Below are positions 32,629 to 48,110 of a stretch of 64,000 nucleotides of DNA, in pieces; position 1 is the stretch's first letter, and each line of letters begins with the position of its first letter. The notes under the pieces are model-generated. The model was not told the DNA's origin, searched no databases, and saw only the letters and a list, made by a program, of their open reading frames with translations. Origin of the DNA: Erythrobacter sp. Its GTDB lineage: Bacteria; Pseudomonadota; Alphaproteobacteria; Sphingomonadales; Sphingomonadaceae. A program made the position numbers and the translations under genes. Location of the stretch: NCBI GenBank assembly GCA_009993635.1, contig JAACTC010000011.1:60089-124088 (forward strand). Reading direction: 5' to 3'.

Positions 32629-33552
32629 CTACTGGATCGCCACGGTAACGTCAAGATAGGCGATGCGCGGTTCGCGCTCCGCACCTGCGCCGATAGCCGC
32701 AGCACGCTCTCCGTTCGCAGCGTTGTCGTTCGCCGCAGATGGCAGCGTGCGCGCCAGCCAACCGCGCATGTCGCCCGCATCCAGCCAGCGGGCCTGCGCG
32801 TGCGACACCGCGTTGGTCATCGCGTAGAAATCGCGTGCGCCCGCCTCGCTCATGCCCATTTCGCGGTAATAGTCGAGGTAATAGCGATTCTCCGGCGCAT
32901 CCAGCGCGAAGTCTTTCGCCTCGCGACCGTGGTTGTCACGCCAGCTGTGGACTGCGAACTGCGCGCCATCCTCCACCTCGCGCCGCGCCCCGGCAAGGAA
33001 CAGCTCGACCGCGCCCGACCGTACCGATCCGCCGCGCGGCACCCGCGTGGTCAGGCCCGCTGCGCGAATCATCCTGCCGACTGCGAGATTGGCCCGGTCG
33101 TTCTCCGTCCCCGGCGCCTCGACCATGTCGAGCGTGGTGAGGTGCGGATAGGCGCGCAGCAGCGCCTCGAACTGCGCCGGCGTCGCCGCGTTGGTAACGC
33201 CGACCAGCACCGCGCGGGTTTCGTCGACCACGCGGAACGGCCCGAAGGCAGCGAGCGCGGTGGGCGCGTTGGCGCGGAACGACGTGATCGCGCGGCCCGC
33301 GCTTTCATAGGCGATCTGCGGAGCCGCATCGGTTTCGTATGGCGAGTAGAGATCGTCCTCGGCGTAGGCGTATTCGCTCGCAGGGTCGGCCTCGTAAAAG
33401 CGCGGATCGCTCTCGTCGATCCACTCCTCGGTGACGGTGACCTGCAGCTCCCAGCCCTCGGCCTGGGCGGGGGGGATCGCCAGGCCGAGGGACGCAATGA
33501 GCGCAGGGAGAAGGGGGGTTGTCCACCGCACCGGCAAACATTTGCCGCACAT
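32629..33552 (-). CDS. secreted protein of unknown function
   Basis: The signal-like N-terminus ends in AIPPAQA. No family was recognised. Start uncertain. Confidence 0.4.
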   Translation of the reverse strand: MCGKCLPVRWTTPLLPALIASLGLAIPPAQAEGWELQVTVTEEWIDESDPRFYEADPASEYAYAEDDLYSPYETDAAPQIAYESAGRAITSFRANAPTALAAFGPFRVVDETRAVLVGVTNAATPAQFEALLRAYPHLTTLDMVEAPGTENDRANLAVGRMIRAAGLTTRVPRGGSVRSGAVELFLAGARREVEDGAQFAVHSWRDNHGREAKDFALDAPENRYYLDYYREMGMSEAGARDFYAMTNAVSHAQARWLDAGDMRGWLARTLPSAANDNAANGERAAAIGAGAEREPRIAYLDVTVAIQ

Positions 33553-33674
33553 GCGTTACCATCTCCCCAGCGAGGATGGTTGCCGGCGAAGTAACCTTTT
33601 GCGCCATGCCACTGACGGGATGCGGGTTCTTGCGGGCTCGACAAGCCGAGGGCGAAGCGGCAAGTGTTTGCCGG

Positions 33675-34618
33675 ATGCACGGGGCCGGGGAGGGCCCGCC
33701 TTTGGTCGCAACGATCCGCACGGTCGCCTATCTCGGGCTGGAGGCGCGCAGCGTCGAGGTGCAGTGCCAGCTCGCCGCCGGCCTCCCGCGCTTTTCGGTC
33801 GTCGGCCTTCCGGACAAGGCCGTGGGCGAAAGCCGCGAACGGGTGCAGGCCGCGCTGGCATCCATGGGGCTGGCGCTGCCGCCCAAGCGGATCACGGTGA
33901 ACCTCTCACCCGCCGACCTGCCCAAGGAAGGATCGCATTACGATCTGCCGATCGCGCTCGCGCTGCTGGCCGCGATGGGCGTGGCGGACCGCGAGCAGCT
34001 GGCCGACTTCGTGGCGGTGGGCGAGCTGGCGCTGGACGGGCGCATCGTCGGTTCGCCCGGCGTGCTGCTGGCCGCGCTTCATGCGAGCGAGGCGGAGTGC
34101 GGCCTGATCTGCCCCGCCGCGCAGGGGGCAGAGGCCGCATGGGCCAGCGGCATCCCGGTGATCGCCGCGCCCGACCTCGTCAGCCTGCTGGGCCACCTCA
34201 AGGGCACACAGCAGCTGGGCGCACCCCAGGTCGGCACGGTGGAGGAGGCCCCGCCCGGCCCCGACCTCAGACAGGTCAAGGGGCAGGAGACCGCCAAGCG
34301 CGCGCTGGAGATCGCGGCGGCGGGCGGCCACAACCTGCTGATGAGCGGGCCGCCGGGTGCGGGCAAGAGCCTGCTCGCTGCCTGCCTGCCCGGCATCCTG
34401 CCCCCGCTGACCCCGGAAGAGGCGCTGGAGGTCAGCATGGTGCAGTCGGTCGCCGGGCTGCTGGAGGGCGGGCGGATCAGCCGCGCGCGGCCCTTCCGTG
34501 CGCCGCACCATTCGGCGAGCATGGCGGCGCTGACCGGCGGCGGGCTGAAGGTGCGCCCGGGCGAGGTCTCCCTCGCGCATCTGGGCGTCCTGTTCCTCGA
34601 CGAGCTGCCCGAGTTCCA
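33675..34618 (+). pseudogene. comM: comM/yifB Mg-chelatase-like ATPase, 5' fragment truncated by insertion
   Basis: VATIRTVAYLGLEARSVEVQ..., the Lon-like domain and the AAA+ Walker A motif (LLMSGPPGAGKS) are present. The Walker B motif (GVLFLDELPEF) is followed by the foreign read-through HSILAQMGPI*. Confidence 0.88.
34611..34618. repeat. left copy of the 8-bp target-site duplication GAGTTCCA
   Basis: An identical octamer lies at 49298..49305. Both are in the comM reading frame. Confidence 0.85.
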
Positions 34619-34645
34619 CAGCATTTTGGCGCAAATGGGACCAAT
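34619..34645. repeat. left terminal inverted repeat
   Basis: CAGCATTTTGGCGCAAATGGGACCAAT matches the reverse complement of 49271..49297 at 24 of 27 positions. Confidence 0.85.
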
Positions 34646-34687
34646 CTAGAAGATGATTTTCCGCTAGATTGATGGTCGAATGGGAGC

Positions 34688-35137
34688 ATGCAGAATCCCA
34701 ACACCGTGTCGGCCCTAAAGAGCAAGCGAGGCGAGATCGCCGGTCGCGTGGATGCACTCCAGGATCAGCTTCGCCAAGTCCTGATCGACCTCGATCACGT
34801 CGACTGCACGATCCTTCTTTTCGATCCCGATGCAGAGCTGGACGAAATCAAGACGAAGCCGATGCCTCCGCGCCATCATGCGTTCAAGGGGCAGGTGACC
34901 CGTTCAATCTTGACCATGTTGAGGAAGTCGTCGGCGCCGCTGGATGGTCTGACCATTACGCTGCGTTTGATGGACGAGCGCGAACTGAATCAGTCCGACA
35001 AAAAGCTGGTGAAGACCATCCAGAAGCGTGTGGGAGCAGCCTTGAGGAATATGCGAGATCGCGGGTTGGTGAAGTCGGAGAAGGGCCACAAGGGACTGCT
35101 GATTTGGGATCTGAAGGGCGCAACACCTGATGTCTGA
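34688..35137 (+). CDS. hypothetical protein (N-terminal coiled-coil, possible winged-helix C-terminus)
   Basis: 149-aa ORF with protein-like composition. It is the first gene inside the left end and overlaps the next ORF by 8 nt. Confidence 0.5.
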   Translation: MQNPNTVSALKSKRGEIAGRVDALQDQLRQVLIDLDHVDCTILLFDPDAELDEIKTKPMPPRHHAFKGQVTRSILTMLRKSSAPLDGLTITLRLMDERELNQSDKKLVKTIQKRVGAALRNMRDRGLVKSEKGHKGLLIWDLKGATPDV

Positions 35138-35537
35138 AGAGGTCATTGATCCCTGGAGCGCTCACGTTTCTCGCTTCGACATTCGCGACGCGCAACTCAC
35201 TGGCATGAGGCCAGATGGCGAAGTGTTTGTTCGGCATGACCTAAGCCTAACGGTGCAGGAAGGCCGCTTTGAACACCTGAGCGAGGACGAGCAAGGGCAG
35301 CCGACACCTTCCCGCCTATGCTATGGCTGCACCATCCGAATTTCAGGGGCGGCGTCACCTGATTATTGGAGCGGGACCGATATGCAGATCGTCGTGACGG
35401 GCACGCATCAGAACGGCTGGCGCATCACTATCGTTGGCCAAGGTGCCATCGGTTTCGATGACGCTGGATCGGTCGGGATCGAGTTCGATCAGGCGCCGAC
35501 AATGACCGTCTACGAGAAAGAAGGCGGAGATGGATAG
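35130..35537 (+). CDS. hypothetical protein
   Basis: 135-aa ORF coupled to the previous one. No family was recognised. Confidence 0.45.
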   Translation: MSEEVIDPWSAHVSRFDIRDAQLTGMRPDGEVFVRHDLSLTVQEGRFEHLSEDEQGQPTPSRLCYGCTIRISGAASPDYWSGTDMQIVVTGTHQNGWRITIVGQGAIGFDDAGSVGIEFDQAPTMTVYEKEGGDG

Positions 35538-35685
35538 GTCGGAAAGGGATGGGCCCACCGATGTCGGGAAGGGCCGTGAATCTTGTCTGATGAAGGTTGA
35601 GGCGCTTCTGCTTGGCGCCGTGATGCTTTACGGCATCTGGTCCCTTATCTCTTCATTCTTCTGATGCAACGGCGCGCGTGCTCTA

Positions 35686-36189
35686 TTACCCTTTCACCAA
35701 CGGGATGCGGGCATGGATGGTGCCAGTGATCACCAAGAACATGACGAAAGGGGCGATGCTGATCGCAGTCGCAATGATCGCGAGCTTCACTCGCTGATAT
35801 TTCTCGCACACGATACGCGAGTTGCGCCAAACCTGTCCTAGCAGGTCGTTTCGAAGCGTTGCCTCGCTACAGTCGAGAAATTCCGCGATATAGTTCGATT
35901 CCGTTCGCTTCTGGATTTCCTTGAAGAAGATCAGGCTTTTCTCTCCTCCATTATCGTCGGGAAAGTTGGCACGGAACAGGTGGTAGTAAGACACGAGTAA
36001 GCCGATGAGCATTAGCGATCCAGGGATCGTGACATACCAGAGGAGCAAGTCGCCAGCGGAAACGTTTAGAGCCGCGATTATGAGAATGAGCGTGTTCACG
36101 CCGAAAAGGGCGTTGATCCTCGCTTCGATACGCGGAAAGAACCCCAGGACCCGATCAAGTTGACGCTGAATGATATCGATGTCCTTCAT
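35686..36189 (-). CDS. PycTM / DUF5706-like (SLATT-like) membrane effector
   Basis: 167 aa with two central TM helices and one C-terminal TM helix. SLIFFKEIQ...EATLRNDLLGQVWRNSRIVCEKYQRVKLAI resembles Pycsar TM effectors. The ATGA overlap links it to the upstream gene. Confidence 0.6.
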   Translation of the reverse strand: MKDIDIIQRQLDRVLGFFPRIEARINALFGVNTLILIIAALNVSAGDLLLWYVTIPGSLMLIGLLVSYYHLFRANFPDDNGGEKSLIFFKEIQKRTESNYIAEFLDCSEATLRNDLLGQVWRNSRIVCEKYQRVKLAIIATAISIAPFVMFLVITGTIHARIPLVKG

Positions 36190-36959
36190 CCCTTTTCCTC
36201 CCCATCCATTGCGGCCTGATCTTCATGCGCAGCCAGGGGGCATCCCCGCATCGTTCTGCAGCATTTCTCGCCGCTAGCGATGACGTCCTGCCAATATTGC
36301 TTCAGCGCTTTTCGCCGGAGGTGTTCGGCATAGGCCAGATCAACCAGTATCTGCCGTTTGTCGCAATCGGCGCGGAGCGTCCTGACCATGCGTCCCCGTG
36401 CACGCCTCTTGCATTTTCGCGGACACAGAGCGCGGCCGTTGATGAGCCGCCCCTTCTTGCCGAAGACATGCAGCTTGCGGTCGGTGATCCAGCTCGGCTC
36501 GCCCAGCCGCGCCAGCTCATACTCCTCTAGTATACCGGCTTCGCGGGCGAGGGACAGCGCGCGCTCATGATGCTTCCCTGCGCTGCCGTGATCTAAGGCC
36601 TGTTTTACGGGCCAAATTCGCGTGAGCTCTGCTACGCCTTGGCATACAAGGAACTGTTCGAGCCGGGTCCACCACTGTCGAGCGACAGCCGGCGAGTGCA
36701 CCTCAAGGGTATGGAGGCCCACGCAAAACGTCATATCGCCCTGGATGTGTCGTTCTGCGCATCTAGCAGGAAGGTCTGTTCCGGGGTTCTCCTCACGCAC
36801 CCGTGGATCGCGAGGACCGGCTATGCGCAGATGTAGTCCGTCCTGTGCCCACGGCGTTTTAGGGACGCGAGCACGACCGACGATAAGCTGCCTGTTGGCT
36901 TTTTCTATGGAGAACCAGGCTGGACGGCTGTCAGCCAGGTGCAGAACGGCTGGCTTCAC
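36186..36959 (-). CDS. hypothetical protein, 257 aa, no recognisable domain
   Basis: The ORF exactly fills the space between the cyclase and the TM effector, with a 4-nt overlap at each end (GTGA and ATGA). Confidence 0.5.
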   Translation of the reverse strand: MKPAVLHLADSRPAWFSIEKANRQLIVGRARVPKTPWAQDGLHLRIAGPRDPRVREENPGTDLPARCAERHIQGDMTFCVGLHTLEVHSPAVARQWWTRLEQFLVCQGVAELTRIWPVKQALDHGSAGKHHERALSLAREAGILEEYELARLGEPSWITDRKLHVFGKKGRLINGRALCPRKCKRRARGRMVRTLRADCDKRQILVDLAYAEHLRRKALKQYWQDVIASGEKCCRTMRGCPLAAHEDQAAMDGEEKG

Positions 36960-38548
36960 CTTTTCGCATGCGCCCGCATCGGCGGAGCGGGGTCGACTTC
37001 ATGTGCCATCATTGGTTCACCATCGACACCGGTGTTGATGTAGGGCGAAGACATAACTCCGAGCATGATTTCCGCAGTGTGCGCATTGAGGTTCTGAATG
37101 ATGCGCTCGCTGCCAAAGGCCTCGCGGATGTTTGCGGGCGATTTCTGGCGTGCATTCTCGCCAATCGCTGTTTCTACACCGTTGCACCGCCGCTGCTCCG
37201 ATTCGGAAACGCAGGTCGCCCGGCTGGCAGCTGCGCGAACACTGGCATCGCCGCGTAGACCGAGCCGACAGATGGGTGTGGTGCCGTAATCGATGCCGAT
37301 GGCAAGGCCGAGGTCCTCGATTCCAGGCAGCATTTCGCGACACAGTTCGAACGAGGAGCGAAGACCGGCTGCAGCATCCACCGACTTCTTCATCGTATCC
37401 ATTGCATTCGTCTCTGCCTTGCTTCCTTCCGCGAGCAGGCCATGGACGCAATCCCCGATGTAGCGAACCTTCCTGCCGCCGAAATCGTCGCGCAAAACCG
37501 CGCCCATCTCCGCGCGAATTACGTGCAAATTCGCCACAGCTTCGGCGATTCCGCCGGTCGCGATGGCATTATCGATGTATGCCGTGAAGTTGTCGACGTC
37601 GGCGAAGATCGATGCCAGTTCCATCCGTATCGCATTGCTCGGAGGATGGTCGGCGTAGACCAGGCCCTTGAGCGGCGGCTCCTTGTGATGGAAACGGAAG
37701 ACCGCTTCGCCACTGTCTGACTTGTTGCGCGCTTCGAGACTTTCGAGGACCGCCGCATAAGCTTTTTCGAGCCTGTCGTTGGCGCTCTGCCGAACGCCTG
37801 CTGTGATTATTTCATCGCCAAGATAGCGACGTTCGATCTCTTCGTTGAGGAACACGCTCTTGGCGAGCGGTTCGGCCACTTGCCCGATCGCGGAGGCCGC
37901 TCGTGGGCTCAGATTCAGGCCTTCATCTGTTCCGTCCGCGAGCTTGGCCGCGTGATTCGCTGGGCTGCCGATGAAGAGCGGTTCGCGTTCACCGCGCCGA
38001 CCGGAATCAATGGCGACAGCGGGTCCACTGTCGATGCCGATGCAGACACCCGTCTTGAAATTCGGATGCTTGTCGCCGAGCCTCTCGACCATCTCACGAA
38101 ACGCAGCGGAGAAAGCCACGGCAACCCGAACACGCTCGCCCTCGTTCTCGGCCCCTTCAGGAGCGAGGACCACGGCATGCAGCCTCGAGCCGTGGAAATC
38201 GACCCGCTGCATTTCGAATTCGTCGATGAGTTCGTCACAGCCCTGGTAATGAGCATGGAGAAACTCCAGGGCCCGCTTATGGCTTGCCTCCGTTTCCCGT
38301 CCTGCGTCGGTCAGGACATCGTTGAAGTCGATAAGATTAGCGTAGACGTGAACGGCATCCGTGGTGATTGCCCTATTGCGCGGGATATCGACCAGTGCGG
38401 CACGGACCGATGCGTCGGCGGCCATACCCTTCTGCACCCTAGCCTCAGTGAGGAAAGTGCGAAAGTCTTCGACCTTGATGTCGCCTTCCGGCACGCTGTT
38501 CATGAAATCCCGAATTCTGTTCCGGGCACGATCCTCGTTCCACGCCAT
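36956..38548 (-). CDS. tandem class III nucleotidyl-cyclase-homology protein (degenerate N-terminal CHD plus catalytic-looking C-terminal CHD)
   Basis: CHD1 reads VHVYANLIDFNDV...VDFHGSRLHAVV...IGIDSGPAVAI...IGSPANHAAKLA and lacks the metal-binding Asp residues. CHD2 reads SIFADVDNFTAYI...VRYIGDCVHGLL...IGIDYGTTPI and keeps them. A GGGAGG RBS precedes the ATG. Confidence 0.7.
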   Translation of the reverse strand: MAWNEDRARNRIRDFMNSVPEGDIKVEDFRTFLTEARVQKGMAADASVRAALVDIPRNRAITTDAVHVYANLIDFNDVLTDAGRETEASHKRALEFLHAHYQGCDELIDEFEMQRVDFHGSRLHAVVLAPEGAENEGERVRVAVAFSAAFREMVERLGDKHPNFKTGVCIGIDSGPAVAIDSGRRGEREPLFIGSPANHAAKLADGTDEGLNLSPRAASAIGQVAEPLAKSVFLNEEIERRYLGDEIITAGVRQSANDRLEKAYAAVLESLEARNKSDSGEAVFRFHHKEPPLKGLVYADHPPSNAIRMELASIFADVDNFTAYIDNAIATGGIAEAVANLHVIRAEMGAVLRDDFGGRKVRYIGDCVHGLLAEGSKAETNAMDTMKKSVDAAAGLRSSFELCREMLPGIEDLGLAIGIDYGTTPICRLGLRGDASVRAAASRATCVSESEQRRCNGVETAIGENARQKSPANIREAFGSERIIQNLNAHTAEIMLGVMSSPYINTGVDGEPMMAHEVDPAPPMRAHAKR

Positions 38549-38692
38549 CTTCTGCAGCCTCCCAGTTGATCGCGAATCACCGAATGGCTGCGACCTATTG
38601 ACCGGTGGAACGTTAGCAGAACATTGAGGTTTTATCCAGCCTTACGCGATGTGCGATGCGAGTCCTGTGGATTTCTGACAACCAGCACGTTC

Positions 38693-39616
38693 TCAGCCGT
38701 TGAATGGGCCCAGATCTGCGATGTGGTCGCGCAGCATGTTGCAAGCCGGCGCCATAATCGCCGCGGCATCCTTCCCTGGCTCGTAGCTGTAGGGAATGGT
38801 CGTTATGCCGGTCAGATCACTCGGTAGTCTTACCTTCTCCTCGCGCGGTTCCATCAGGATGGCCCGCTTGCGTCCAAGGCGCCCCATGAAGAGCCCCAGC
38901 TCGAAGATCACGTTATCACGGGGGGCGGGCCATTTTTGGTCGCGAACCAGGGTGACATCGTCTGTGTGGGCGATCGCGATTGCGAAATCAGAATCGTCGA
39001 CCTCGGTCTCCAGGGAATCCAGCGCGTAGCTTGCCACTTTGAAGACATCGTTCGTCCAGAGGCGGACCACGAAATCGTCATGCGCAAAGGCGTTTTCGAT
39101 TATGCGCGCTACCGCCAGGGCTTCCACCGAGCAGATGATGAAGACCCGAACCTTCTCGCGGTGCTGCCCAACCTGCTTGTTTCGCTCAAGCAGGCGACGG
39201 GCCAAGGTCCTGGCTATGACCCGGTAGATGTCGGAATGCCTCGATGCGATGTCGCATATGTCTGCGTAGCTGAGCTTCGCCACCAGAGCGGCCTCTTTCG
39301 CGACGACGTCTGCCGATCGCCGCTGCGAGGGTTCGACTACGACCATCTCGCCGACATGGTCACCCCTGCCGCGTGAAGCGACTTCACGGCCGTTTATGAT
39401 GATACCGAAGTTGCCCGCCATGATCAGATAGAGATCATTGTCGTCTCCACCTTGCCTTATGATCGCTTCGCCCTCGGTAACCCCGAGCATCTCGGCCCTG
39501 TCGGCGAGTTCCTCGGCGAGTTCGCGATTTCCGCTCACAATCTGTTGCTGCAGCATGGCGTCAATCCGATTGGCGCGGCCTGCGTCGCCCTGAAAGCGTT
39601 CGGTCAATCTGCTCAC
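38693..39616 (-). CDS. cyclic-nucleotide-binding domain plus CAP12/Pycsar-type TIR-like effector
   Basis: The N-terminal CAP_ED motif reads GDDNDLYLIMAGNF...GDHVGEMVVVEPSQRRSADVVA. The C-terminal TIR-like motif reads FAIAIAHTDD...RDNVIFELGLFMGRLGRKRAILM...LPSDLTGI. Confidence 0.75.
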   Translation of the reverse strand: MSRLTERFQGDAGRANRIDAMLQQQIVSGNRELAEELADRAEMLGVTEGEAIIRQGGDDNDLYLIMAGNFGIIINGREVASRGRGDHVGEMVVVEPSQRRSADVVAKEAALVAKLSYADICDIASRHSDIYRVIARTLARRLLERNKQVGQHREKVRVFIICSVEALAVARIIENAFAHDDFVVRLWTNDVFKVASYALDSLETEVDDSDFAIAIAHTDDVTLVRDQKWPAPRDNVIFELGLFMGRLGRKRAILMEPREEKVRLPSDLTGITTIPYSYEPGKDAAAIMAPACNMLRDHIADLGPFNG

Positions 39617-40311
39617 GTGAAAGCCCTCCAGTAGGTCGAGGAATAGATTTCCTCATCGTTATGTTGGGACCATTTCCATTTGTGCCAGATGTTCTCGCCT
39701 TGGCTGCCAAGCTTTTGAGGGTCCTTGAGCCCGTCATAGACCCGCTTCGTTATCCAGGTCGCCTTGTCCGCGCTCAGTGATGTCAACTTGGCTGCGAGAT
39801 TGGCTGCGATGCCGATCCACACGAGGTCATTATCGCCCCGCACACCAGTGCGTGCAGCGCGTATTTCGGAAGTATCGATCCCGACGACGTGCCGAATCTC
39901 GGAATCGTGTTTCCAGTGCTTCTTCATCCCGGTCTTGAGGTAGTTCTTGACCGCGTAGTTGATCTCCAAAGCGCAACTGACCGCCTGGTTGCGCTGGCTG
40001 CTGGATATAAAGATTCCCATCACCCGGTCGCCGTCGTATGAGACGATCTTCCCGCCGTGCTGCCGGATCAGCCGCGATGCCGTGTAGAGGAACGTCTTGT
40101 AGACCTCGCCGGCGAATTGCCATTTCTTCGTCGCCACGAGATCCGTGGACTGGTCGAGATCCGCATATAGGATGGTGGCCTTTTCGAACCGAACCGCGTC
40201 GTTGGCTAGTTTCAGATCGCTGGCATTCGGAACCACCTGTCCGTCGCGCACGCTCCACTTGGAGCCGAAGGTGTCGGCCGCGTTCTTCTTGATATCGTCC
40301 GCAACGCTCAC
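39613..40311 (-). CDS. Pycsar-type small class III nucleotidyl cyclase (PycC-like)
   Basis: 232 aa with a single CHD: ATILYADLDQSTDL...YDGDRVMGIF...VGIDTSEIRAARTG...IGIAANLAAKL. It overlaps the downstream effector by 4 nt. Confidence 0.75.
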   Translation of the reverse strand: MSVADDIKKNAADTFGSKWSVRDGQVVPNASDLKLANDAVRFEKATILYADLDQSTDLVATKKWQFAGEVYKTFLYTASRLIRQHGGKIVSYDGDRVMGIFISSSQRNQAVSCALEINYAVKNYLKTGMKKHWKHDSEIRHVVGIDTSEIRAARTGVRGDNDLVWIGIAANLAAKLTSLSADKATWITKRVYDGLKDPQKLGSQGENIWHKWKWSQHNDEEIYSSTYWRAFT

Positions 40312-40335
40312 GCTGTTCCAATCCTTTGTCGAATT

Positions 40336-41532
40336 TTACACCTTCGGCGTTCGCTCGACGATGCCATCATCGTCGATGTCGTAACGATACAGGTGGAGCT
40401 TGCGGGTCGAGATTAGCCTAATGGCCTGCTCCACCGACGAGGGTGAGACTAGGAACCACTCCCGCGGGTCGACCTTGCGTCCGAAGCGGTCAGGTAAATG
40501 CACATCGACGCAGGCCGCTGAGAAGAACCGGTGTAGCAGCCCCTCTATTTTCTTGGGTGGGACGCCCCGAGTGTCATATTCATCGACGAGCTCCGCTTTC
40601 GACATGAGAAAGGTCGGATCGTTGTCGGCAGCGCTGAGCCTGCCTGCAGCTGATCCGGTGGTGGAACCGACCTTTACCATGTGGCTTTTCAGATCAGCCA
40701 GTGCTGGGTCTTCGGAGAGGGTTCTGGCGACATAGATGCGCCCGGTCACCGGAGCGGCCTGACCGTCGAACAGCGGGCCGGCTTGTGGTGACAGAACGCG
40801 GCGGCTGTTGTCGGCGCGGTAGAGTGCCTTACCGAAGGACCGCAGCAGATGACCGCTCTCGGTTCCGTTGTCATAGATGATGCGCAGCCTCGCGTCCTTC
40901 TGGTCACCCTTGGTTCGCGTCATCCAGGCGCCCACTTCGGCAATGTAAGCAAGCTGACCGTCGAGGATGAACATATCTCCGGCAGCGATCTGGTATGTGG
41001 AGCTGGTAGGCACGGTAGAGCGGACACCGGAGGCAATGTCCGCAATGGCCTCGTCGAAAATAGGAGCGAATTTTTCGAATTCGGCGCACGGCGTCCTTTC
41101 GGCGATCATATCCGCCTCGGCCTTCGGGACAGGAGCTGGCGTGGCCCGGAATTCGAAGATGTGATCATCGGGCGTGGCCAGAAGATCGTCATCGTCCGCG
41201 ATGAGTTCATCTAGGCTGGCCGGCACTTGATCCATTCGCCCTGCGCTTTGTTGTAGTAGCCCGTATTGATCTAGATCCCGAAGGGCGCTGACCTTATTCT
41301 CATCTTCTCGGAAGGCATTGAGCCGAACGCCTAGCCGCATTTCCTCCGGTGATCGGGACGCGGAGTCTGGAGGACGCCCATGGCGTTCTCGGAACGACAC
41401 GATCTCGAGGAACAGCCGCGCCTGATCGTCCGCCTGGGTCGCGGCCTTCTTGACCTCGGGAACGAACAGGTCATCCTTCGCGGCGATGAGCTCGTCGAGC
41501 TTCTCGTAGAACAGGTCAGCCGAGCGAGACAT
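40336..41532 (-). CDS. T5orf172 / MUG113 (GIY-YIG superfamily) domain protein with helicase-associated-like N-terminal motif
   Basis: The C-terminal part reads GRIYVARTL...MVKVGSTTGSAAGRL...IEGLLHRFF...REWFLVSPSSVEQAI. Its start overlaps the helicase stop by 1 nt. Confidence 0.7.
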   Translation of the reverse strand: MSRSADLFYEKLDELIAAKDDLFVPEVKKAATQADDQARLFLEIVSFRERHGRPPDSASRSPEEMRLGVRLNAFREDENKVSALRDLDQYGLLQQSAGRMDQVPASLDELIADDDDLLATPDDHIFEFRATPAPVPKAEADMIAERTPCAEFEKFAPIFDEAIADIASGVRSTVPTSSTYQIAAGDMFILDGQLAYIAEVGAWMTRTKGDQKDARLRIIYDNGTESGHLLRSFGKALYRADNSRRVLSPQAGPLFDGQAAPVTGRIYVARTLSEDPALADLKSHMVKVGSTTGSAAGRLSAADNDPTFLMSKAELVDEYDTRGVPPKKIEGLLHRFFSAACVDVHLPDRFGRKVDPREWFLVSPSSVEQAIRLISTRKLHLYRYDIDDDGIVERTPKV

Positions 41533-43589
41533 CAGGCTGCTTCATCCCGTTCCTTTTCCTTCTGACGCCGGATCGCAGCCGCCCTAATCCATGCCAGAGA
41601 CTCAGCCATCCGCTTCTCGATCGGATCGGGCGAATTGATGTTCGGCTCCTTTCCGTGCTGTTCCTTGAACGCACGGATGCGCGGCACTTGTGCCAGAGCT
41701 TCGGCTTCGCTGATTGTGATCTTGGTCTCGGCGAGCGTCTGGTGGATACGTCGCAAGACAGATTCGCCGAGCGACTTCGACAGTATTTCGTAGGATTGCT
41801 GGAACGGGTTCACCTGGTCGATCAGATCGATGCTGAGTTCGGGCATCGTGATGAACTTTGAAGTCAGCTTCAGAAGCTGCGCATGCGCCTTCTGGCCATC
41901 GGTCGCATCATCGTCCTCCGACGAGGCCTGGCCTGTCTCGCGGTTCGCCTGTGTGAGCTGGGCCAGAACCGCACGTCGTGCAACGACATTCTGGCGGATT
42001 GCTTCGATGTCGTCCTCGTTATCCGCGATGTCGGGATAGCGCTTGGCGATGAGGTCAGGGATCAGATGTTGATTGATCGTCTCGGCCGGGAACTCGTCGG
42101 GGATGAGGCTGGCGCGCATGACCTGATTGTCCTGCAGGACCGCGGCCATGAGATCGGTCATATCCGTCTGAATGATTTCCTCGGCACGCTTGCTGGTCGG
42201 CTCCTTCAAGCCCGTCACTTCGATGGTGGGCTCCGGCTCGAGCAGGTCGATCCGGGTAGAGGGCCGCGCGACGCCATCGAAACGATCGTCCGATGCCTTG
42301 GTCTTGAAGTTGAAATTGGGAGCGAGCACCTGCTCCATGAGTAGCGAGCAGGCGATCGCCTTGAGCATATCATTGACCGCTGTGCGCACGACCTCGTCGG
42401 CGGTATCTGGTTCCGCGATCAGATTGGTGAATTGTGCATGGCTCTTGCCCGGGGCGTCGCGTGTCGCTCGCCCAATGATCTGGACGACCTCGGTGAGCGA
42501 ACCACGATAGCCGATGGTCAGCGCATGCTCGCACCAGATCCAGTCGAAGCCCTCTTTGGCCATGCCCAGCGCGATGACAATGTCGAGGTCATCCTTTTCC
42601 TCCACGCTCCGGAGGCCGTTAAGCACCTTCTGCTGTGTGTCGGGGGTTACGAGATCGGCGATCTTGAGGATGCGACCATCGGACGTCCGAAGATGTTGGA
42701 ACCCGGTGACGGGATCGATCTCCACGACATCCCCGAGCACATCGAGGATGCTGTTCATCTCCTTGATCTTGTCGCCGAGCGCCGCTTGCGAGTTGACGTT
42801 GGGTATGTGGATGATCGTTTTCTTCGTCGGGTCCAGGACCTCGCCGATCGCGCTTAGATAGCTCCCGTGGTAGAAGTGGTAGCCAATCCCGAGCGTCTTG
42901 AGATGCTCGTAACCGGACAGCTGCTCGTAGTAGGTGTAGGTAACCCGGGTGAACTTCTCCTCGTCCTCGGGCCGGAGGACGGGAACTTGGTCGCCACGGA
43001 AGTAGGACCCGGTCATCGCCACGAGGTGGGCCGACCCTTCGCTCATCACTGAGCGGACGAGCTCACCGAGGCGATTGTCGGCGTCGGCCGAGACATGGTG
43101 GAACTCGTCCACCGCGAGCAGGCAACCGTGGAAGGCAGCGATTCCCGCATCGCTTTCCATGATCCGATCGAAGGCATGACGCAGGGTCGAATGCGTGCAG
43201 ACGATGATCTCGTCGTCGCTTTCCATGAAGCGGAGGAATGCGTTGATCTTGCCGCCTTCGCCCCCGAGCATATCGCACAGGTTGTTGCGTGGTGACACTG
43301 TCCAGTCATGGTCGAAGCCGTGCTGAGTGAGGCTGGTCGACCGGAACGAGTTGCCGATCGATTTCTCCGGCACCGCCACGATGACCTTACGGATGCCCTG
43401 ATTGTAGAGCTTGTCGAGCCCGAGGAACATGAGCGCGCGGCTCTTGCCCGAAGCCGGCGGCGACTTGATCAGAAGATACTGGGAGTTTCGAGCATCGTAG
43501 GCGCGGGCCTGCATTGCGCGCATGCCCATATCGTTCGTCGACTTGCTGGCGCCGGTGGCGCCGTATTCGACAGTGATGAAATCGGGCAT
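41532..43589 (-). CDS. SF2 DExH-box helicase (ResIII-like)
   Basis: Motif I is SPPASGKS, motif II is AVDEFHH, motif III is AMTGS and motif VI is QIIGRATR. A C-terminal extension of about 200 aa follows. Confidence 0.85.
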   Translation of the reverse strand: MPDFITVEYGATGASKSTNDMGMRAMQARAYDARNSQYLLIKSPPASGKSRALMFLGLDKLYNQGIRKVIVAVPEKSIGNSFRSTSLTQHGFDHDWTVSPRNNLCDMLGGEGGKINAFLRFMESDDEIIVCTHSTLRHAFDRIMESDAGIAAFHGCLLAVDEFHHVSADADNRLGELVRSVMSEGSAHLVAMTGSYFRGDQVPVLRPEDEEKFTRVTYTYYEQLSGYEHLKTLGIGYHFYHGSYLSAIGEVLDPTKKTIIHIPNVNSQAALGDKIKEMNSILDVLGDVVEIDPVTGFQHLRTSDGRILKIADLVTPDTQQKVLNGLRSVEEKDDLDIVIALGMAKEGFDWIWCEHALTIGYRGSLTEVVQIIGRATRDAPGKSHAQFTNLIAEPDTADEVVRTAVNDMLKAIACSLLMEQVLAPNFNFKTKASDDRFDGVARPSTRIDLLEPEPTIEVTGLKEPTSKRAEEIIQTDMTDLMAAVLQDNQVMRASLIPDEFPAETINQHLIPDLIAKRYPDIADNEDDIEAIRQNVVARRAVLAQLTQANRETGQASSEDDDATDGQKAHAQLLKLTSKFITMPELSIDLIDQVNPFQQSYEILSKSLGESVLRRIHQTLAETKITISEAEALAQVPRIRAFKEQHGKEPNINSPDPIEKRMAESLAWIRAAAIRRQKEKERDEAA

Positions 43590-43602
43590 GCTACTCTCCG
43601 GT

Positions 43603-46335
43603 TCAGGCGGCTTTTGCCGCTTTCTTGGTCATACGGGCGTAAAGCTTGAACAGGTGCTCGAGGCGCTCAGTATCGTCCTTAAATTGACGTCCGATATAGA
43701 TTGTCTCGAGATAGTCATCGAGGTTCCGGTGGGCTTGAAGAAGGTCGTCCGGCATTGTCTTAGGATTATATAGCCAACCCAAGGTTTTGCCGTCGGCTAC
43801 GTAAGGCTCTCTCGTCCGGACGATGCCAAGTGCATGTTCCTCAAGGTTCACTTTCTGCTCGTGGGAGAGTGATGGCATCGGAAAGTTGTTGTAGACCAGT
43901 GTGTTCGAATACCGATAATCGCTCTTCAGTCTTCCACCGACTGTAGCGAGCCAGACCGCATGAATTCTTGTCGACAGGACTGAAAGAAGCCACGTTGGCG
44001 GATCGTAAATTGCCAAAGCCGCATCATTGATAATGACTGTCTCCGAAAGAAAGCCGCAAGGCAGGTAAAGCCTATTTTCAGAAGAGACACGAGGGACGAT
44101 TATCGCAGGCTTTCCGTAATCTTGGATCTGAATGAAGCGATGCGCAGTGTCAGCCTTAGCCCGCGTGGTGGGAGCTTTAGCCTGCAGACGAAAAGCACGA
44201 CTCGCAGCTACTCGCTCTGCGATTAAAGGAATTGATAAAGCTTCGTCGAAGTCAGCATCTTCAATCCACAGACAGTATCTTTCCTTGCTCTGGAGGTAAT
44301 CCTTGGAGCCATAATACCGTTTTATAAACTTGGAGGAATCTGGATTCCTATCTCGCATTTCACGAGCCTCGTCGGGTGTCAGTATCAGACCCCCTCCATC
44401 AGATGCCATATTGCCTTTTTCCATCCGAGGCAGGCCGCTAAGATTTAAGGATGAACGACCCACCCAGACGGTGTCCATCTCAATAAGATACGGACCGATG
44501 TTTCTTACTTGTCTGGAGCTATCGTGAGATATGACGCGCCTATTGATATTCGATCTTGGGGAGATCGCAACGATTACACATATTACAGCGGCATTCTTAG
44601 CCGCATTGTTTCGCCATTTGAACGCTTCATGAGCGAATAGAACCTGGCTACCATGGTCAAAGACTGCCGGCCATAACAAGGCGACCTGTTCACCTTGCGC
44701 GATGCTGTTGGTTGCGACGAACGCTGACTCTGCGCCAGACCTTTCGCCATATTCTGCTGCTTTTAGGAACCATCCAGCTACATAGTCTAAATTTTTATAG
44801 TTGACCTTGTAGGGGGTAAAAACCGCTCGCAGATCGCTTTTTTGCTCGGGCGTCTGCATGCTGCTGCCAAGATAGGGTGGATTTCCAACGACGTAAATTT
44901 CAGCCTCTTTCTCTCGAGGACACACCTCTGACCAGTCGACGCGCAGAGCATTACCAACAACGATGCTGCCTGCATCCGTAAGCGGCAGTGCCGGCGTCGG
45001 CGCCGAGCAGATCTCGTCCAGCTTGCGGTTCATCTGATATTGCGAAATCCACAGCGACAGCTTGGCGGTCTCGCAGGCGAAATCAACCGGGTCGATGCCA
45101 TAGAAGTTGCTGATCTTGATGCCGGTCTGGTAATCGGCCAGTTGCAACTGACCCTTGCGTTTTACGTCACGCATGCGCCGGAAAGCCTCGGTCTCGATCA
45201 GCCGCAGCTCCCGATAGGCGATGATCAGGAAATTGCCCGATCCGCATGCGGGGTCGAACACGCGGATGCGCGAAATGCGCTCGACCAGCTTCTCGAGCGC
45301 CTTCACGTTGTCGCCGGCGGCAGTGAGCTGTTCACGAAGGGAGCCAAGGAACAACGGCTCCAGAACCTTCATGATGTTGGGCACGGAGGTGTAGTGCATG
45401 CCGAAGTCGGCGCGCATATCGGTCTGCACGATGGCCTGGATCATCGAGCCGAAGATATCGGCATGGATCTGGTCCCAGTGCAGCTCTGCCGCCTCGAGCA
45501 GCAGTCGCCGGGCTTTCCGGTTGAATTCGGGTATCTCGGTGTGATCGCGGAAAAGCCCGCCATTCACATAGGGGAAGTCGGCTGCGATACGCTGCGAGCG
45601 GACTCCTTGATCGGCCCGGGCGTCCTTGTCGGCCAAGTCGAGGGCAAGGAACACATCCTCGATGACGCGCTTGGTGTCCGATCCATCGACCTTCATCGCT
45701 TCGCGACGGAGGGTGTTGAGGAACAGCTTGTCGGTGAAGATGCCTGTGTCTTCTGCGAACATGCAGAACAGTAGCCGTGTCATGAACAGGTTGAGGTCGT
45801 GGACCTTGTCTGCGCCCCAGGTCGGATTGGCATCACGGATGGCGTCGTGGAACTTGGCCATGTGCCTCGCGGCCTTGACGTCGGCGGCAGTCTCAGGGGC
45901 AGGCTTGAACCGCTCCACGCCGAACATCGGAAGCAGGAAGTCGTAGTTGACCGGGAGCTCGGCCAGCTTATCGAAGCTGGGGGTCTCGTCGTTCTTGAGA
46001 TCGACGGCGAGAAATTCGTCACCGTCCGTGCTCATCACGAACCGAGGCGCATTCTTCGCAGAGCGCCCCTTCTTACCGACCAGCGAAGCCTTCAACGAAG
46101 TGACTGTATCCTGGACTTCGCCCTTCTGCGCCGCGCGGTAGAGGAGCTTTTTGGGCCAAAGAATGTCGGCGTCCACGAGCCCTTCGGGATGCTTCATCCT
46201 CAGCTTGTTGACCTCGTTCCTGGAAGCCTCGTAGGCCTCCATCAGCCTGAAGGGAAACTCGTGCAGCGAGCAGTTTTCCGCCGACACGTCGGCAACCAGC
46301 AGATCCAGCTGCTTCTCGATTTCGATTGTGTTCAT
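43603..46335 (-). CDS. MmeI/PglX-like gamma-class N6-adenine DNA methyltransferase (911 aa; N-terminal nuclease motif apparently degenerate)
   Basis: Motif I is VFDPACGSGNFLI and motif IV is VVGNPPYLG. The N-terminal region is MmeI-like and there is a large C-terminal TRD-like region. The start at MNTIEIE (46335) overlaps the upstream stop (ATGA). The track start at 46455 is an extension. Confidence 0.85.
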   Translation of the reverse strand: MNTIEIEKQLDLLVADVSAENCSLHEFPFRLMEAYEASRNEVNKLRMKHPEGLVDADILWPKKLLYRAAQKGEVQDTVTSLKASLVGKKGRSAKNAPRFVMSTDGDEFLAVDLKNDETPSFDKLAELPVNYDFLLPMFGVERFKPAPETAADVKAARHMAKFHDAIRDANPTWGADKVHDLNLFMTRLLFCMFAEDTGIFTDKLFLNTLRREAMKVDGSDTKRVIEDVFLALDLADKDARADQGVRSQRIAADFPYVNGGLFRDHTEIPEFNRKARRLLLEAAELHWDQIHADIFGSMIQAIVQTDMRADFGMHYTSVPNIMKVLEPLFLGSLREQLTAAGDNVKALEKLVERISRIRVFDPACGSGNFLIIAYRELRLIETEAFRRMRDVKRKGQLQLADYQTGIKISNFYGIDPVDFACETAKLSLWISQYQMNRKLDEICSAPTPALPLTDAGSIVVGNALRVDWSEVCPREKEAEIYVVGNPPYLGSSMQTPEQKSDLRAVFTPYKVNYKNLDYVAGWFLKAAEYGERSGAESAFVATNSIAQGEQVALLWPAVFDHGSQVLFAHEAFKWRNNAAKNAAVICVIVAISPRSNINRRVISHDSSRQVRNIGPYLIEMDTVWVGRSSLNLSGLPRMEKGNMASDGGGLILTPDEAREMRDRNPDSSKFIKRYYGSKDYLQSKERYCLWIEDADFDEALSIPLIAERVAASRAFRLQAKAPTTRAKADTAHRFIQIQDYGKPAIIVPRVSSENRLYLPCGFLSETVIINDAALAIYDPPTWLLSVLSTRIHAVWLATVGGRLKSDYRYSNTLVYNNFPMPSLSHEQKVNLEEHALGIVRTREPYVADGKTLGWLYNPKTMPDDLLQAHRNLDDYLETIYIGRQFKDDTERLEHLFKLYARMTKKAAKAA

Positions 46336-46652
46336 GATTCGCGCGCGCGGGTCCGTTTGGCCAAGGTCTGAGCGCCGTGAGCGTCGGCAGCTATTTGCGA
46401 TACTTCGTCTGCCTTCGGGATTGGCAGCAGGTCGGTGCCAATGGCGACCATACACTGCGCAAAGAAAGAGGCGGTGAACCGCCCACGGGCCACCTTGTTA
46501 CGCAGATTGGCTACGTTGTCGCTCACCCCGATGGCAGCGAGCTTATCGACCAGAACTTCGTAAGAGACCCCCTTACGCATCATTTCAGCGCGCAGGAGGT
46601 TCTTCACCAATTGGTCCCACGCGGCTTCGTCTATCTGTTCGATTTCCTTCAT
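46332..46652 (-). CDS. small DUF6471-like HTH protein
   Basis: MKEIEQIDEAAWDQLVKNLLRAEMMRKGVSYEVLVDKLAAIGVSDNVANLRNKVARGRFTASFFAQCMVAIG. It is translationally coupled to the methyltransferase. Confidence 0.6.
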   Translation of the reverse strand: MKEIEQIDEAAWDQLVKNLLRAEMMRKGVSYEVLVDKLAAIGVSDNVANLRNKVARGRFTASFFAQCMVAIGTDLLPIPKADEVSQIAADAHGAQTLAKRTRARES

Positions 46653-46719
46653 ATGGCCGTTATAGGACGCACAAGTTCCAAACGGCAAGCGTCGGCAGTT
46701 ATGTGCACCACCACAGACG

Positions 46720-48039: not shown

Positions 48040-48110
48040 CCTTGTGCTGAATGCCGGCCGAGTGTCAGCATTAACGCGATGATGACCATGCGGATGCCAT
48101 CTGTCGCCGC

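What the first reader, a model, noticed from the sequence alone, without database searches (positions are those of the whole stretch)
35686..38548. Non-canonical three-gene cyclase module: fused pseudo-heterodimeric double-CHD cyclase, unknown 257-aa protein and PycTM-like effector
- Immediately downstream of the canonical pair lies a second, translationally coupled trio. The gene junctions overlap (GTGA at 36956..36959 and ATGA at 36186..36189).
- Its 530-aa cyclase contains two cyclase-homology domains in one chain.
- The N-terminal domain has lost the metal-binding Asp residues (YANLIDF instead of FADxxGF, and HGSRLHAVV instead of GDxxMxxF).
- The C-terminal domain keeps them (FADVDNFT and IGDCVHGLL).
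- This resembles the C1/C2 arrangement of eukaryotic adenylyl cyclases, which gives one catalytic site and one potentially regulatory site.
- It does not resemble the homodimeric Pycsar cyclases I know of.
- The last gene is a three-TM protein of the PycTM/DUF5706 type with no recognisable cNMP-binding domain.
- The middle gene has no recognisable domain. It could be the sensor, the signal receptor or a regulator.
- I do not recognise this three-component layout as a described system.
Basis: inference. Interest (0 to 1): 0.82.

Follow-up and report, generated by a model that had tools for sequence, protein, structure and literature searches.

The report
E2-regulated clade-A Pycsar defence operon
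The three genes are a real, widely conserved anti-phage operon of a kind already noted in the literature: a two-domain pyrimidine cyclase, a ubiquitin-E2-like enzyme (not an unknown protein) and a membrane effector, so this is an ordinary new member whose E2 step has not, as far as I could find, been tested.

Summary
The sequence observations hold. Three minus-strand genes overlap by 4 bp (GTGA, ATGA). The 530-aa protein has two cyclase-homology domains. The first has lost both metal-binding Asp (N71, S121) and the second keeps them (D317, D366). The last gene is a three-segment PycTM.

The 257-aa middle protein is recognisable as a prokaryotic E2: Pfam E2-ntca plus E2-Crich, PADLOC E2 at 3e-92, and a UBC-like model. 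The fused cyclase is the known clade-A PycC architecture (PaPycC, PDB 6YII; E 3.5e-74, TM 0.75-0.84).

Cyclase and E2 are adjacent in 48 of 51 species-level loci. The other three carry an E2-E1 fusion instead. The third gene alternates between PycTM and PycTIR. The PaPycC locus itself has an uncalled E2 ORF. The literature already notes E1/E2 accessory proteins in Pycsar.

Best reading: this is an E2-only ("type II-short-like") Pycsar system. The pseudo-heterodimeric cyclase makes a cyclic pyrimidine nucleotide that opens PycTM. By analogy with E2-CBASS, the E2 probably acts on the cyclase's disordered C-terminal tail. That tail carries a conserved R-[APS]-[HY] motif in 224 of 237 homologues.

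Novelty: new member of a known kind. Interest is moderate.

The parts
36956..38548 (-). Clade-A PycC: 530-aa fused two-domain class III nucleotide cyclase (includes the stop codon)
   Evidence: PADLOC PycC PDLC00762 8.7e-186 over residues 1-529. PDB 6YII E 3.5e-74 by sequence. Foldseek E 9.4e-40, TM 0.75/0.84. 670 homologues at E<=1e-5.
37904..38401 (-). CHD1 (about aa 50-215). It is degenerate at the metal site (N71, S121) but keeps N198 and K202 in PANHAAKL.
   Evidence: hhalign to the single-domain PycC profile gives probability 98.5%, with N71 and S121 aligned to the canonical Asp positions. Pfam PF00211 matches residues 83-204. Residues invariant.
37064..37651 (-). CHD2 (about aa 300-495). 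It keeps the metal-binding Asp D317 (FADVDNFT) and D366 (IGDCVHGLL).
   Evidence: hhalign of the N-half against the C-half aligns the two domains, with D317/D366 opposite N71/S121. D317, G365 and D366 are invariant in 26 homologues. Positions checked.
36959..37054 (-). Disordered C-terminal tail of the cyclase (aa 499-530). It carries two copies of the conserved motif: PMMAH 512-516 (nt 37001-37015) and PMRAH 523-527 (nt 36968-36982), followed by AKR.
   Evidence: AF2 pLDDT is below 50 for residues 499-530. [RQEKN][APS][HY] lies within the last 16 aa in 224 of 237 homologues, against 3.9% expected. Tails are listed.
36186..36959 (-). Stand-alone prokaryotic E2 (E2-ntca domain plus Cys-rich C-terminal domain), 257 aa. 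The putative catalytic dyad is H71...C79 (C79 codon at nt 36723-36725).
   Evidence: Pfam PF20298 2.5e-22 and PF20272 1.1e-18. PADLOC E2 2.9e-92. AF2 pLDDT 89.5, with nearly all leading Foldseek hits being UBC E2 enzymes (best 1wzv, E 0.037, prob 0.92). C67, H71, F78, C79, W97, W116, P117, H124 and G125 are invariant.
35686..36189 (-). PycTM effector, 167 aa, with three hydrophobic segments (23-41, 47-65, 133-151)
   Evidence: Pfam PycTM PF18967 4.1e-12. PADLOC 2TM effector PDLC00692 5.5e-71 and PycTM PDLC02363 1.1e-32. Hydropathy scan.
38549..38692 (.). 144-bp intergenic gap separating the trio from the upstream PycC/PycTIR pair
   Evidence: ORF coordinates. A GGGAGG Shine-Dalgarno-like run lies 8-9 nt before the cyclase ATG. 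The consensus promoter/terminator scan was uninformative.
38693..40311 (-). Neighbouring two-gene Pycsar: single-domain PycC (39613-40311, 232 aa) and PycTIR (38693-39616, 307 aa), overlapping by GTGA
   Evidence: PADLOC PycC PDLC00766 6e-100 and TIR effector PDLC00731 1.9e-133. Pfam cNMP_binding plus CAP12-PCTIR_TIR.

Best explanation
The trio is an E2-accessorised Pycsar anti-phage system of the clade-A type.

- Cyclase (shown from sequence): the 530-aa cyclase folds as an intramolecular pseudo-heterodimer with a single competent active site. CHD2 supplies the metal-binding Asp D317/D366. CHD1 supplies N198/K202. The symmetry-related site is degenerate (N71/S121).
- Signal and effector (inferred): on phage infection the cyclase makes a 3',5'-cyclic pyrimidine mononucleotide. 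cUMP is the best guess, by homology to PaPycC. The nucleotide activates the co-translated three-segment PycTM effector, which damages the membrane and aborts infection.
- E2 (inferred by analogy): the 257-aa E2 regulates the cyclase covalently through its disordered C-terminal tail. The E2 has a UBC fold, the H71...C79 dyad, and a Cys-rich, probably zinc-binding, C-terminal domain. In E2-only CBASS the E2 acts as a cysteine protease/transferase: it trims the cGAS C-terminus and forms thioester and isopeptide links. By analogy, this E2 would recognise the conserved R-[A/P/S]-[H/Y] motif (PMRAH-AKR here), remove the short extension, and tether or oligomerise the cyclase to prime or gate its activity.
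For: Identity of the three genes:
- Family and structure matches.

Obligate cyclase-E2 linkage:
- An E2-ntca gene lies immediately downstream of the cyclase in 48 of 51 complete species-level loci, down to 35% cyclase identity.
- The remaining three loci (L032, L033, L035) carry a Prok-E2_B+ThiF (Cap2-like E2-E1) fusion at the same position.
- The same adjacency holds in the PaPycC-like clade and when starting from distant E2s.
- Gene overlaps of 4 bp are seen here and in a RefSeq plasmid trio.

Modular effector:
- The effector is PycTM or cNMP-TIR, on either side of the cyclase-E2 pair. This fits a cNMP signal read by interchangeable receptors.

Tail as the E2 handle:
- The tail is disordered.
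- The motif is present in 224 of 237 homologues against 3.9% expected, followed by a variable extension of 2-11 residues.
- Tails of the E2-E1-linked cyclases end differently (…GGNRHA/…GSGRHA), so the tail varies with the conjugation enzyme.

E2 catalytic geometry:
- Invariant H71 and C79 sit between beta-4 and the crossover helix, where UBC enzymes carry HPN…Cys.

Precedent:
- The E2-CBASS mechanism (bioRxiv 10.1101/2022.05.25.493364; PMC12948482).
- Statements that E1/E2 accessories occur in Pycsar (10.1101/2023.09.04.556158; PMC11601596; 10.64898/2026.08.12.744502).
Against: - No biochemical data exist for this E2 family.
- The E2 has no detectable sequence match to any PDB chain, and the Foldseek E-values are weak (0.04-0.3).
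- The tail motif is not a C-terminal Gly as in CBASS, so the chemistry and the cleavage position are guesses.
- The homologues are related to each other, so the motif statistic overstates independence.
- The product nucleotide is uncertain. 6YII was deposited as an 'adenylyl cyclase-like ATP-binding protein', and a 2026 preprint predicts an ATP preference for its E2-associated subclade. cUMP for PaPycC is taken only from citing papers.
- Promoters and terminators could not be resolved, so I have not shown that the trio is transcribed independently of the upstream pair.
Confidence: 0.6

Rival explanations
1. The five genes (single-domain PycC, PycTIR, clade-A PycC, E2, PycTM) work as one integrated circuit rather than two independent systems. 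For example, the E2-gated clade-A cyclase could be the sensor and the second cyclase an amplifier. Alternatively, two cyclases could feed two effectors with cross-talk.
For: - A single-domain PycC lies within 6 kb of the clade-A cyclase/E2 pair in about 27 of 51 species-level loci, in at least seven different gene orders.
- A Paraburkholderia locus encodes PycC-E2-PycTIR-shortPycC-PycTM consecutively on one strand.
- Loci L019-21 and L049 carry two cyclases but only one detectable effector.
- Other loci place a cNMP-binding/cyclase fusion directly upstream of the pair.
- A 2026 preprint also raises relay-like signalling for multi-cyclase loci (10.64898/2026.08.12.744502).
Against: - The trio, or cyclase-E2 plus one effector, stands alone in many loci: L047, L023, L024/28, L025/26, L030, L034, L038, L048, L050, L053, L054, L057, L058 and L059.
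- In L015 and L022 the pair is divergently oriented from the trio.
- In the window the two blocks are separately translationally coupled with a 144-bp gap between them.
- Defence genes cluster for reasons other than function, and many loci share ancestry.
Confidence: 0.2
2. The E2 does not act on the cyclase tail. Instead it senses or modifies a phage protein or the effector, or it serves as a scaffold.
For: - The tail motif lacks the Gly used in known ubiquitin-like conjugation.
- The extra Cys-rich domain (C179, C183, C199, C233, C234, C240) could bind another partner.
- No structure or biochemistry exists for this family.
Against: - The E2 is linked to this cyclase clade whichever effector is present.
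- A Cap2-like E2-E1 occupies the same position in three loci, and their cyclase tails end differently. In CBASS, Cap2 acts on the cyclase C-terminus.
- The conserved tail motif sits in an otherwise variable disordered region.
Confidence: 0.15
3. The 530-aa protein is a catalytically inert nucleotide-binding sensor, as the 6YII deposition title suggests, and the trio does not signal through a cyclase product.
For: - 6YII is titled 'adenylyl cyclase-like ATP-binding protein'.
- Pfam detects only CHD1.
- One site is clearly degenerate.
Against: - D317, D366, N198 and K202 are invariant across homologues at 52-85% identity and match the catalytic positions of an active single-domain PycC.
- PaPycC is reported as a cUMP synthase (PMC12489823; PMC11224242).
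- The neighbouring effectors are always cNMP-type receptors.
Confidence: 0.05
4. One reading: an undescribed three-component system whose unknown middle protein is the sensor or signal receptor.
For: I found no experimental paper on an E2-only Pycsar in the searchable library.
Against: - The middle protein is an E2 by Pfam, PADLOC, NCBI naming and fold.
- The cyclase architecture and the E2 association are both already in the literature and in annotation pipelines.
Confidence: 0.03

Closest known systems
PaPycsar (Pseudomonas aeruginosa clade-A PycC, PDB 6YII, with PaPycTIR)
   Same: - Same two-domain cyclase family (E 3.5e-74; TM 0.75/0.84).
- Same E2-ntca/E2-Crich gene overlapping the cyclase stop by 4 bp (L053 7542-8315).
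- Conserved aromatic tail motif (…VQPHSRQKVDGSR).
   Different: - The effector is PycTIR upstream, rather than PycTM downstream.
- PaPycC CHD1 keeps the first Asp (YAD), where the window has YAN.
- About 34-45% identity.
- The gene caller behind the contig collection did not call the Pa E2 (TTG start). The papers I could read treat the system as two genes.
E2-CBASS (type II short CBASS; Serratia marcescens CdnG-E2)
   Same: - A signalling-nucleotide synthase followed by a stand-alone E2, with no E1 or JAB, plus a membrane-type effector.
- The synthase has an extended C-terminal tail with a conserved residue just before a short extension.
- The E2 has conserved Cys and His.
   Different: - The synthase is a class III CHD cyclase, not a CD-NTase.
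- The E2 belongs to a different family (E2-ntca plus a Cys-rich domain) with no sequence match to PDB chains.
- The tail motif is R-[APS]-[HY]-x2-11, not Gly-x.
- No biochemistry exists for this family.
Type II CBASS / 'Type II Pycsar' (Cap2 E2-E1 fusion with Cap3 JAB)
   Same: - A ubiquitin-like conjugation enzyme encoded next to the signalling enzyme.
- Three relatives of this cyclase (L032, L033, L035) carry a Prok-E2_B+ThiF fusion in place of the E2.
   Different: - The window has no E1 (ThiF) domain in the trio, and no JAB domain was found among the island proteins scanned.
- ATP-dependent adenylation of the tail is therefore not available.
Canonical two-gene Pycsar (clade B-E homodimeric PycC plus PycTM/PycTIR)
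   Same: Same effector families, same CHD catalytic motifs and the same abortive-infection logic. One such pair sits immediately upstream in the window.
   Different: - The cyclase here is a fused pseudo-heterodimer with one active site.
- It carries a long disordered tail.
- An E2 gene is obligatorily linked to it.
Mammalian soluble and transmembrane adenylyl cyclases (C1-C2)
   Same: - Two CHDs in one chain form one catalytic and one degenerate pocket.
- These are the next-best structural matches after 6YII (4clt E 7e-13; AC9 7pdf).
   Different: - The domain order of roles is reversed: the metal Asp are in the second domain.
- About 12-14% identity, with an unrelated biological context.
- This is a resemblance of mechanism only, not membership.

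Membership tests
Pycsar | Class III (CHD) nucleotide cyclase of the PycC family | tested here: met
   PADLOC PycC PDLC00762 8.7e-186 over the full length. Pfam PF00211 3e-08.
Pycsar | Adjacent cNMP-responsive effector (PycTM or PycTIR) | tested here: met
   The 167-aa protein matches PF18967 at 4.1e-12 and PADLOC effector PDLC00692 at 5.5e-71, and overlaps the E2 stop by 4 bp.
Pycsar | Product is cCMP or cUMP | not testable with these tools
   cUMP is inferred only from PaPycC as cited in PMC12489823. A 2026 preprint predicts ATP for its E2-associated subclade.
Pycsar | Confers phage resistance by abortive infection | not testable with these tools
   Only context is available: a 14.6-kb low-GC island in comM that also carries an MmeI-type R-M enzyme and a helicase.
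Clade-A PycC (PaPycC/6YII type) | Two consecutive cyclase domains in one polypeptide | tested here: met
   hhalign of both halves. Foldseek to 6YII over 507 columns, TM 0.75/0.84. PMC11224242 states that clade A has two domains.
Clade-A PycC (PaPycC/6YII type) | Sequence homology to PaPycC across both domains | tested here: met
   phmmer E 3.5e-74, query residues 50-492 against chain residues 33-468.
E2-only regulated signalling systems (E2-CBASS-like) | Stand-alone UBC-fold E2 encoded next to the synthase | tested here: met
   Pfam E2-ntca 2.5e-22. AF2 pLDDT 89.5, with nearly all leading Foldseek hits being E2 enzymes. Adjacent in 48 of 51 loci.
E2-only regulated signalling systems (E2-CBASS-like) | Conserved active-site Cys with an upstream His | tested here: met
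   H71 and C79 (and C67) are invariant in the 20-, 28- and 40-sequence alignments. They lie in the loop between beta-4 and helix 90-113.
E2-only regulated signalling systems (E2-CBASS-like) | Synthase C-terminal tail ending in a conserved Gly plus a short extension, used for conjugation | tested here: inconclusive
   A conserved disordered-tail motif exists, but it is R-[APS]-[HY] plus 2-11 aa with no Gly.
E2-only regulated signalling systems (E2-CBASS-like) | Covalent synthase~E2 thioester/isopeptide and C-terminal trimming | not testable with these tools
   Needs co-expression and mass spectrometry. No multimer prediction was available.
Type II CBASS/Pycsar (Cap2/Cap3) | E1 (ThiF) domain fused to the E2, and a JAB peptidase | tested here: not met
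   The E2 is 257 aa with no ThiF domain, and no JAB domain was found among the island proteins scanned. E2-E1 fusions occur only in relatives L032, L033 and L035.

The most novel reading that the evidence does not exclude
The E2-gated clade-A cyclase and the neighbouring single-domain PycC are parts of one cyclic-nucleotide relay or logic circuit, not two independent systems. The E2 module controls a sensor cyclase through an ATP-independent trimming/ligation reaction at a non-glycine R-[APS]-[HY] site. A second cyclase (a single-domain PycC, or in other genomes a cNMP-binding/cyclase fusion) amplifies or diversifies the signal to two effectors.
Probability: 0.15. Interest if true: 0.7.

Novelty: new member of a known kind. 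Interest (0 to 1): 0.38.

Why it matters
As it stands, the finding adds one more copy of an E2-associated clade-A Pycsar operon, sitting in a comM-inserted defence island of a sphingomonad-like bacterium.

Its value lies in what the comparison exposes:
- This cyclase clade is essentially never found without a ubiquitin-like conjugation enzyme.
- The structurally solved type member, PaPycC, has an overlooked E2 gene.
- The cyclase tail carries a conserved non-glycine motif.

Together these give a concrete, cheap experiment on how a bacterial E2 without an E1 controls a class III cyclase. That mechanism has been worked out for CBASS, but I found no such work for Pycsar.

Tried and rejected
- A profile search of the E2 alignment against PDB sequences found nothing at E<=10. 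Homology to the solved CBASS E2 could therefore not be shown by sequence. Only a weak fold match to eukaryotic E2s was obtained.
- The promoter/terminator scan of 35300-40600 found fewer sites than shuffled controls. It is uninformative about whether the trio and the upstream pair share a transcript.
- I considered whether the E2 might act on the neighbouring single-domain PycC, because that protein ends in …WRAFT. I rejected this: the middle residue varies (A/E/Q/K/S), and the segment is the end of the folded domain, not a tail.
I repeated it with database homologues.
- Tal 2021, Burroughs 2015, Ledvina 2023 and Hobbs & Kranzusch 2024 are not held in the library. What they say is taken from citing papers or from my memory, and is marked as such.
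- I could not establish whether the published PaPycsar construct included the E2 ORF.
- Equating clade A with the preprint's 'Pycsar-like-4' subclade is an inference from shared E2 and WYL/BrxR contexts. It was not verified from accession lists.
Full report
**1. What is in the sequence**

On the minus strand there are five consecutive genes:
- a 232-aa protein (39613-40311);
- a 307-aa protein (38693-39616);
- then, after a 144-bp gap, a 530-aa protein (36956-38548), a 257-aa protein (36186-36959) and a 167-aa protein (35686-36189).

The upstream pair also overlaps by GTGA. Shine-Dalgarno-like runs precede the cyclase and effector starts. The homologues share the same N-termini, so the gene models are sound.

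**2. Identity of the proteins**

Cyclase:
- The 530-aa protein matches PADLOC's PycC model PDLC00762 end to end (8.7e-186).
- It matches the solved structure 6YII by sequence (E 3.5e-74).
- Its AlphaFold model (pLDDT 77) superposes on 6YII (E 9.4e-40, TM 0.75/0.84). The next matches are human soluble adenylyl cyclase and the AC9 catalytic core, which are single-chain C1-C2 pseudo-heterodimers.

Domain comparison:
- The N-terminal half aligns to single-domain PycC with probability 98.5%. N71 and S121 sit where the canonical enzyme has its two metal-binding Asp, while the PANHAAKL motif (N198, K202) is retained.
- The C-terminal half keeps D317 and D366.
- These residues are invariant across 26 homologues of 52-85% identity.

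It is not new, however. [quoted passage not shown] PMC12489823 reports PaPycC as a cUMP synthase.

Middle gene:
- It is not an orphan. It matches Pfam PF20298 (E2-ntca, 2.5e-22) and PF20272 (E2-Crich, 1.1e-18).
- It matches PADLOC E2 PDLC00875 (2.9e-92).
- NCBI names its homologues 'E2 domain-containing protein' or 'E2 domain-associated cysteine-rich protein'.
- Its model is confident (pLDDT 89.5). Nearly all leading Foldseek hits are ubiquitin-conjugating enzymes, though with weak E-values (best 0.037, prob 0.92).
- C67, H71, F78, C79, W97, W116, P117, H124 and G125 are invariant.
- H71 and C79 lie in the loop between the four-stranded meander and the long helix. That is the position of the HPN…Cys active site in UBC enzymes. 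The active-site assignment is inference from the secondary-structure order.
- The family has about 450 representatives at 50% identity.

Third gene: it is a PycTM (PF18967 4e-12; PADLOC 5.5e-71) with three hydrophobic segments.

**3. Conservation of the layout**

A scan of one genome per species returned 52 loci encoding relatives of the cyclase (35-94% identity). Iterative profile mapping of their ORFs gave the following.
- An E2-ntca gene lies directly downstream in 48 of 51 complete loci.
- The three exceptions carry a roughly 615-aa Prok-E2_B+ThiF fusion, that is, a Cap2-like E2-E1, at the same place.
- The effector is interchangeable. It is PycTM after the E2 in the window's close relatives. 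It is a cNMP-binding TIR after the E2 or before the cyclase in others.

Further evidence for the stand-alone trio:
- A RefSeq plasmid carries the trio alone, with the same 4-bp overlaps. It is annotated cyclase / E2 domain-associated cysteine-rich protein / Pycsar system effector family protein.
- Starting instead from two distant E2 homologues again lands on PycTIR-cyclase-E2.
- The PaPycC-like clade behaves in the same way.
- In the contig that encodes the exact 6YII protein, a 257-aa TTG-start ORF overlaps the PycC stop by 4 bp. No gene was called there, but the ORF is an E2-ntca/E2-Crich protein (1.4e-32 / 6.7e-39).

The trio is thus a genuine unit.

**4.

The last 32 residues of the cyclase are predicted disordered. 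They carry PMMAH (512-516) and PMRAH (523-527), followed by AKR.
- Across 237 homologues from both clades, a [RQEKN][APS][HY] tripeptide lies in the last 16 residues in 224 cases. Background frequency predicts 3.9%.
- The motif is followed by 2-11 residues, most often 3.
- The cyclases paired with E2-E1 fusions end differently (…GGNRHA, …GSGRHA).
- The sequences are related, so this is not a formal probability. Still, a fixed motif in an otherwise variable tail, which changes with the type of conjugation enzyme, is what a recognition or processing site would look like.

**5. Mechanism**

*Shown by sequence and structure comparison:*
- a clade-A PycC with one composite active site;
- an E2-fold protein with a conserved Cys/His pair;
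- a PycTM effector;
- obligate cyclase-E2 linkage.

*Inferred from family knowledge:* the cyclase makes a cyclic pyrimidine nucleotide that activates PycTM, causing abortive infection.

*Inferred by analogy with E2-only CBASS:* in that system the E2 acts as a cysteine protease. It removes the residue after the C-terminal Gly of cGAS, forms a thioester and then isopeptide links, and builds activating cGAS chains (10.1101/2022.05.25.493364; PMC12948482). I propose that this E2 uses C79 to process the tail at the R-A-H motif and to tether the cyclase covalently, priming or gating it. I rate the identity of the system at about 0.85 and the tail-processing step at about 0.5.

**6. Rivals**

- *Five genes as one circuit.* A single-domain PycC recurs within 6 kb in about half of the loci, in at least seven gene orders. 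These include a consecutive same-strand CycA-E2-PycTIR-shortPycC-PycTM cluster in Paraburkholderia and four-gene operons with two cyclases and one effector. This keeps open the idea that the five genes form one circuit. Many stand-alone trios argue against it being necessary.
- *E2 with a different target.* The E2 could act on another protein.
- *Inert cyclase.* This reading is unlikely, given the invariant catalytic residues and the cNMP-type effectors.

**7. Comparison with what is known, and novelty**

- The cyclase is a member of clade-A PycC.
- The system meets the testable Pycsar criteria.
- It works like E2-CBASS but is not a CBASS, because the synthase is not a CD-NTase.
- It is not the Cap2/Cap3 'type II' form, because it has no E1 or JAB.

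Accessory E1/E2/DUB proteins in Pycsar are stated in the literature (10.1101/2023.09.04.556158; 'Type II Pycsar', PMC11601596). A 2026 preprint defines an E2-associated, WYL-linked 'Pycsar-like-4' subclade, which matches the contexts seen here. From memory, Burroughs et al. 2015 first described these cyclase-E2 neighbourhoods; I could not read that paper.

I found no experimental work on the E2-only Pycsar form in the searchable library. Verdict: new member of a known kind, of moderate interest, mainly as a ready-made test case for E1-independent E2 control of a class III cyclase.

**8. Context**

- The genes lie in a roughly 14.6-kb island of lower G+C (0.58 against 0.66) that splits a comM (Mg-chelatase-like) gene. 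The 5' part is at 33519-34649 and the 3' part at 49292-49897.
- The island also carries a T5orf172 protein, a ResIII helicase, an MmeI-type restriction-modification enzyme and an IS1595 transposase.
- The closest loci are from Citromicrobium and Erythrobacter (94% identity), which suggests a sphingomonad host.

Noticed in passing
window 33519-34649 and 49292-49897 (island about 34650-49290): A comM/Mg-chelatase-like gene is split in two by a roughly 14.6-kb lower-GC island (0.58 against 0.66). The island carries both Pycsar modules and other defence genes. The Pfam Mg_chelatase profile covers positions 1-120 on the left and 115-206 plus the C-terminal domain on the right. No integrase was recognised. 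The ORFs at 48111-49100 have no Pfam match.
   Followed up: partly
window 40336-46455 (minus strand): Upstream of the Pycsar genes lie a T5orf172/MUG113 (GIY-YIG-like) 398-aa protein, a 685-aa ResIII/DEAD helicase overlapping it by one base, and a 950-aa MmeI-type fused restriction-modification enzyme. This may be a further defence module. An IS1595 transposase follows at 46720-48039.
   Followed up: partly
L053 7542-8315 (contig encoding the exact PDB 6YII protein, PaPycC): A 257-aa TTG-start ORF overlaps the PaPycC stop by 4 bp. No gene was called there, but it is an E2-ntca/E2-Crich protein (1.4e-32 / 6.7e-39). The structurally characterised clade-A Pycsar therefore has a third gene that the papers I could read do not mention.
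   Followed up: yes
L029, L031, L032, L037, L041, L042, L044-L046 (gene directly upstream of the cyclase, e.g. L041 4818-5990): Proteins of about 374-390 aa that fuse a cNMP-binding domain to a cyclase domain sit directly upstream of the clade-A cyclase/E2 pair. In L037, L041 and L044 no PycTM or PycTIR was detected within 6 kb. A cNMP-activated cyclase may act there as a relay or as an NTP-consuming effector.
   Followed up: partly
L019-L021, L049 (6001-9994); L036, L051: Four-gene clusters CycA-E2-PycTIR-shortPycC contain two cyclases but only one detectable effector.
   Followed up: partly
L032 7589-9451, L033 7478-9397, L035 7562-9403: In three relatives the stand-alone E2 is replaced by a Prok-E2_B+ThiF (Cap2-like E2-E1) fusion. 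The cyclase tails there end …GSGRHA, …GGNRNA or …GGNRHA instead of R-A-H-xxx, so the tail co-varies with the conjugation enzyme.
   Followed up: partly
window 37001-37015 and 36968-36982: The tail motif is duplicated (PMMAH…PMRAH) in the window and throughout the sphingomonad clade. It is single in more distant relatives. The reason for two copies is unexplained.
   Followed up: no
window 34688-35537 (plus strand): Two overlapping small ORFs (149 and 135 aa) lie at the left edge of the island, convergent with the trio. They have no significant Pfam or PADLOC match.
   Followed up: partly
L055 3016-3891, L056 2984-3895: BrxR/WYL-type regulators are divergently transcribed from the clade-A cyclase/E2 pair in Paraburkholderia and Burkholderia loci. 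None is present in the window.
   Followed up: no
L036 10821-12140: Another clade-A cyclase/E2 locus lies next to a comM-like gene whose N-terminus resembles the window's. This hints that comM is a recurrent insertion site for these islands.
   Followed up: no
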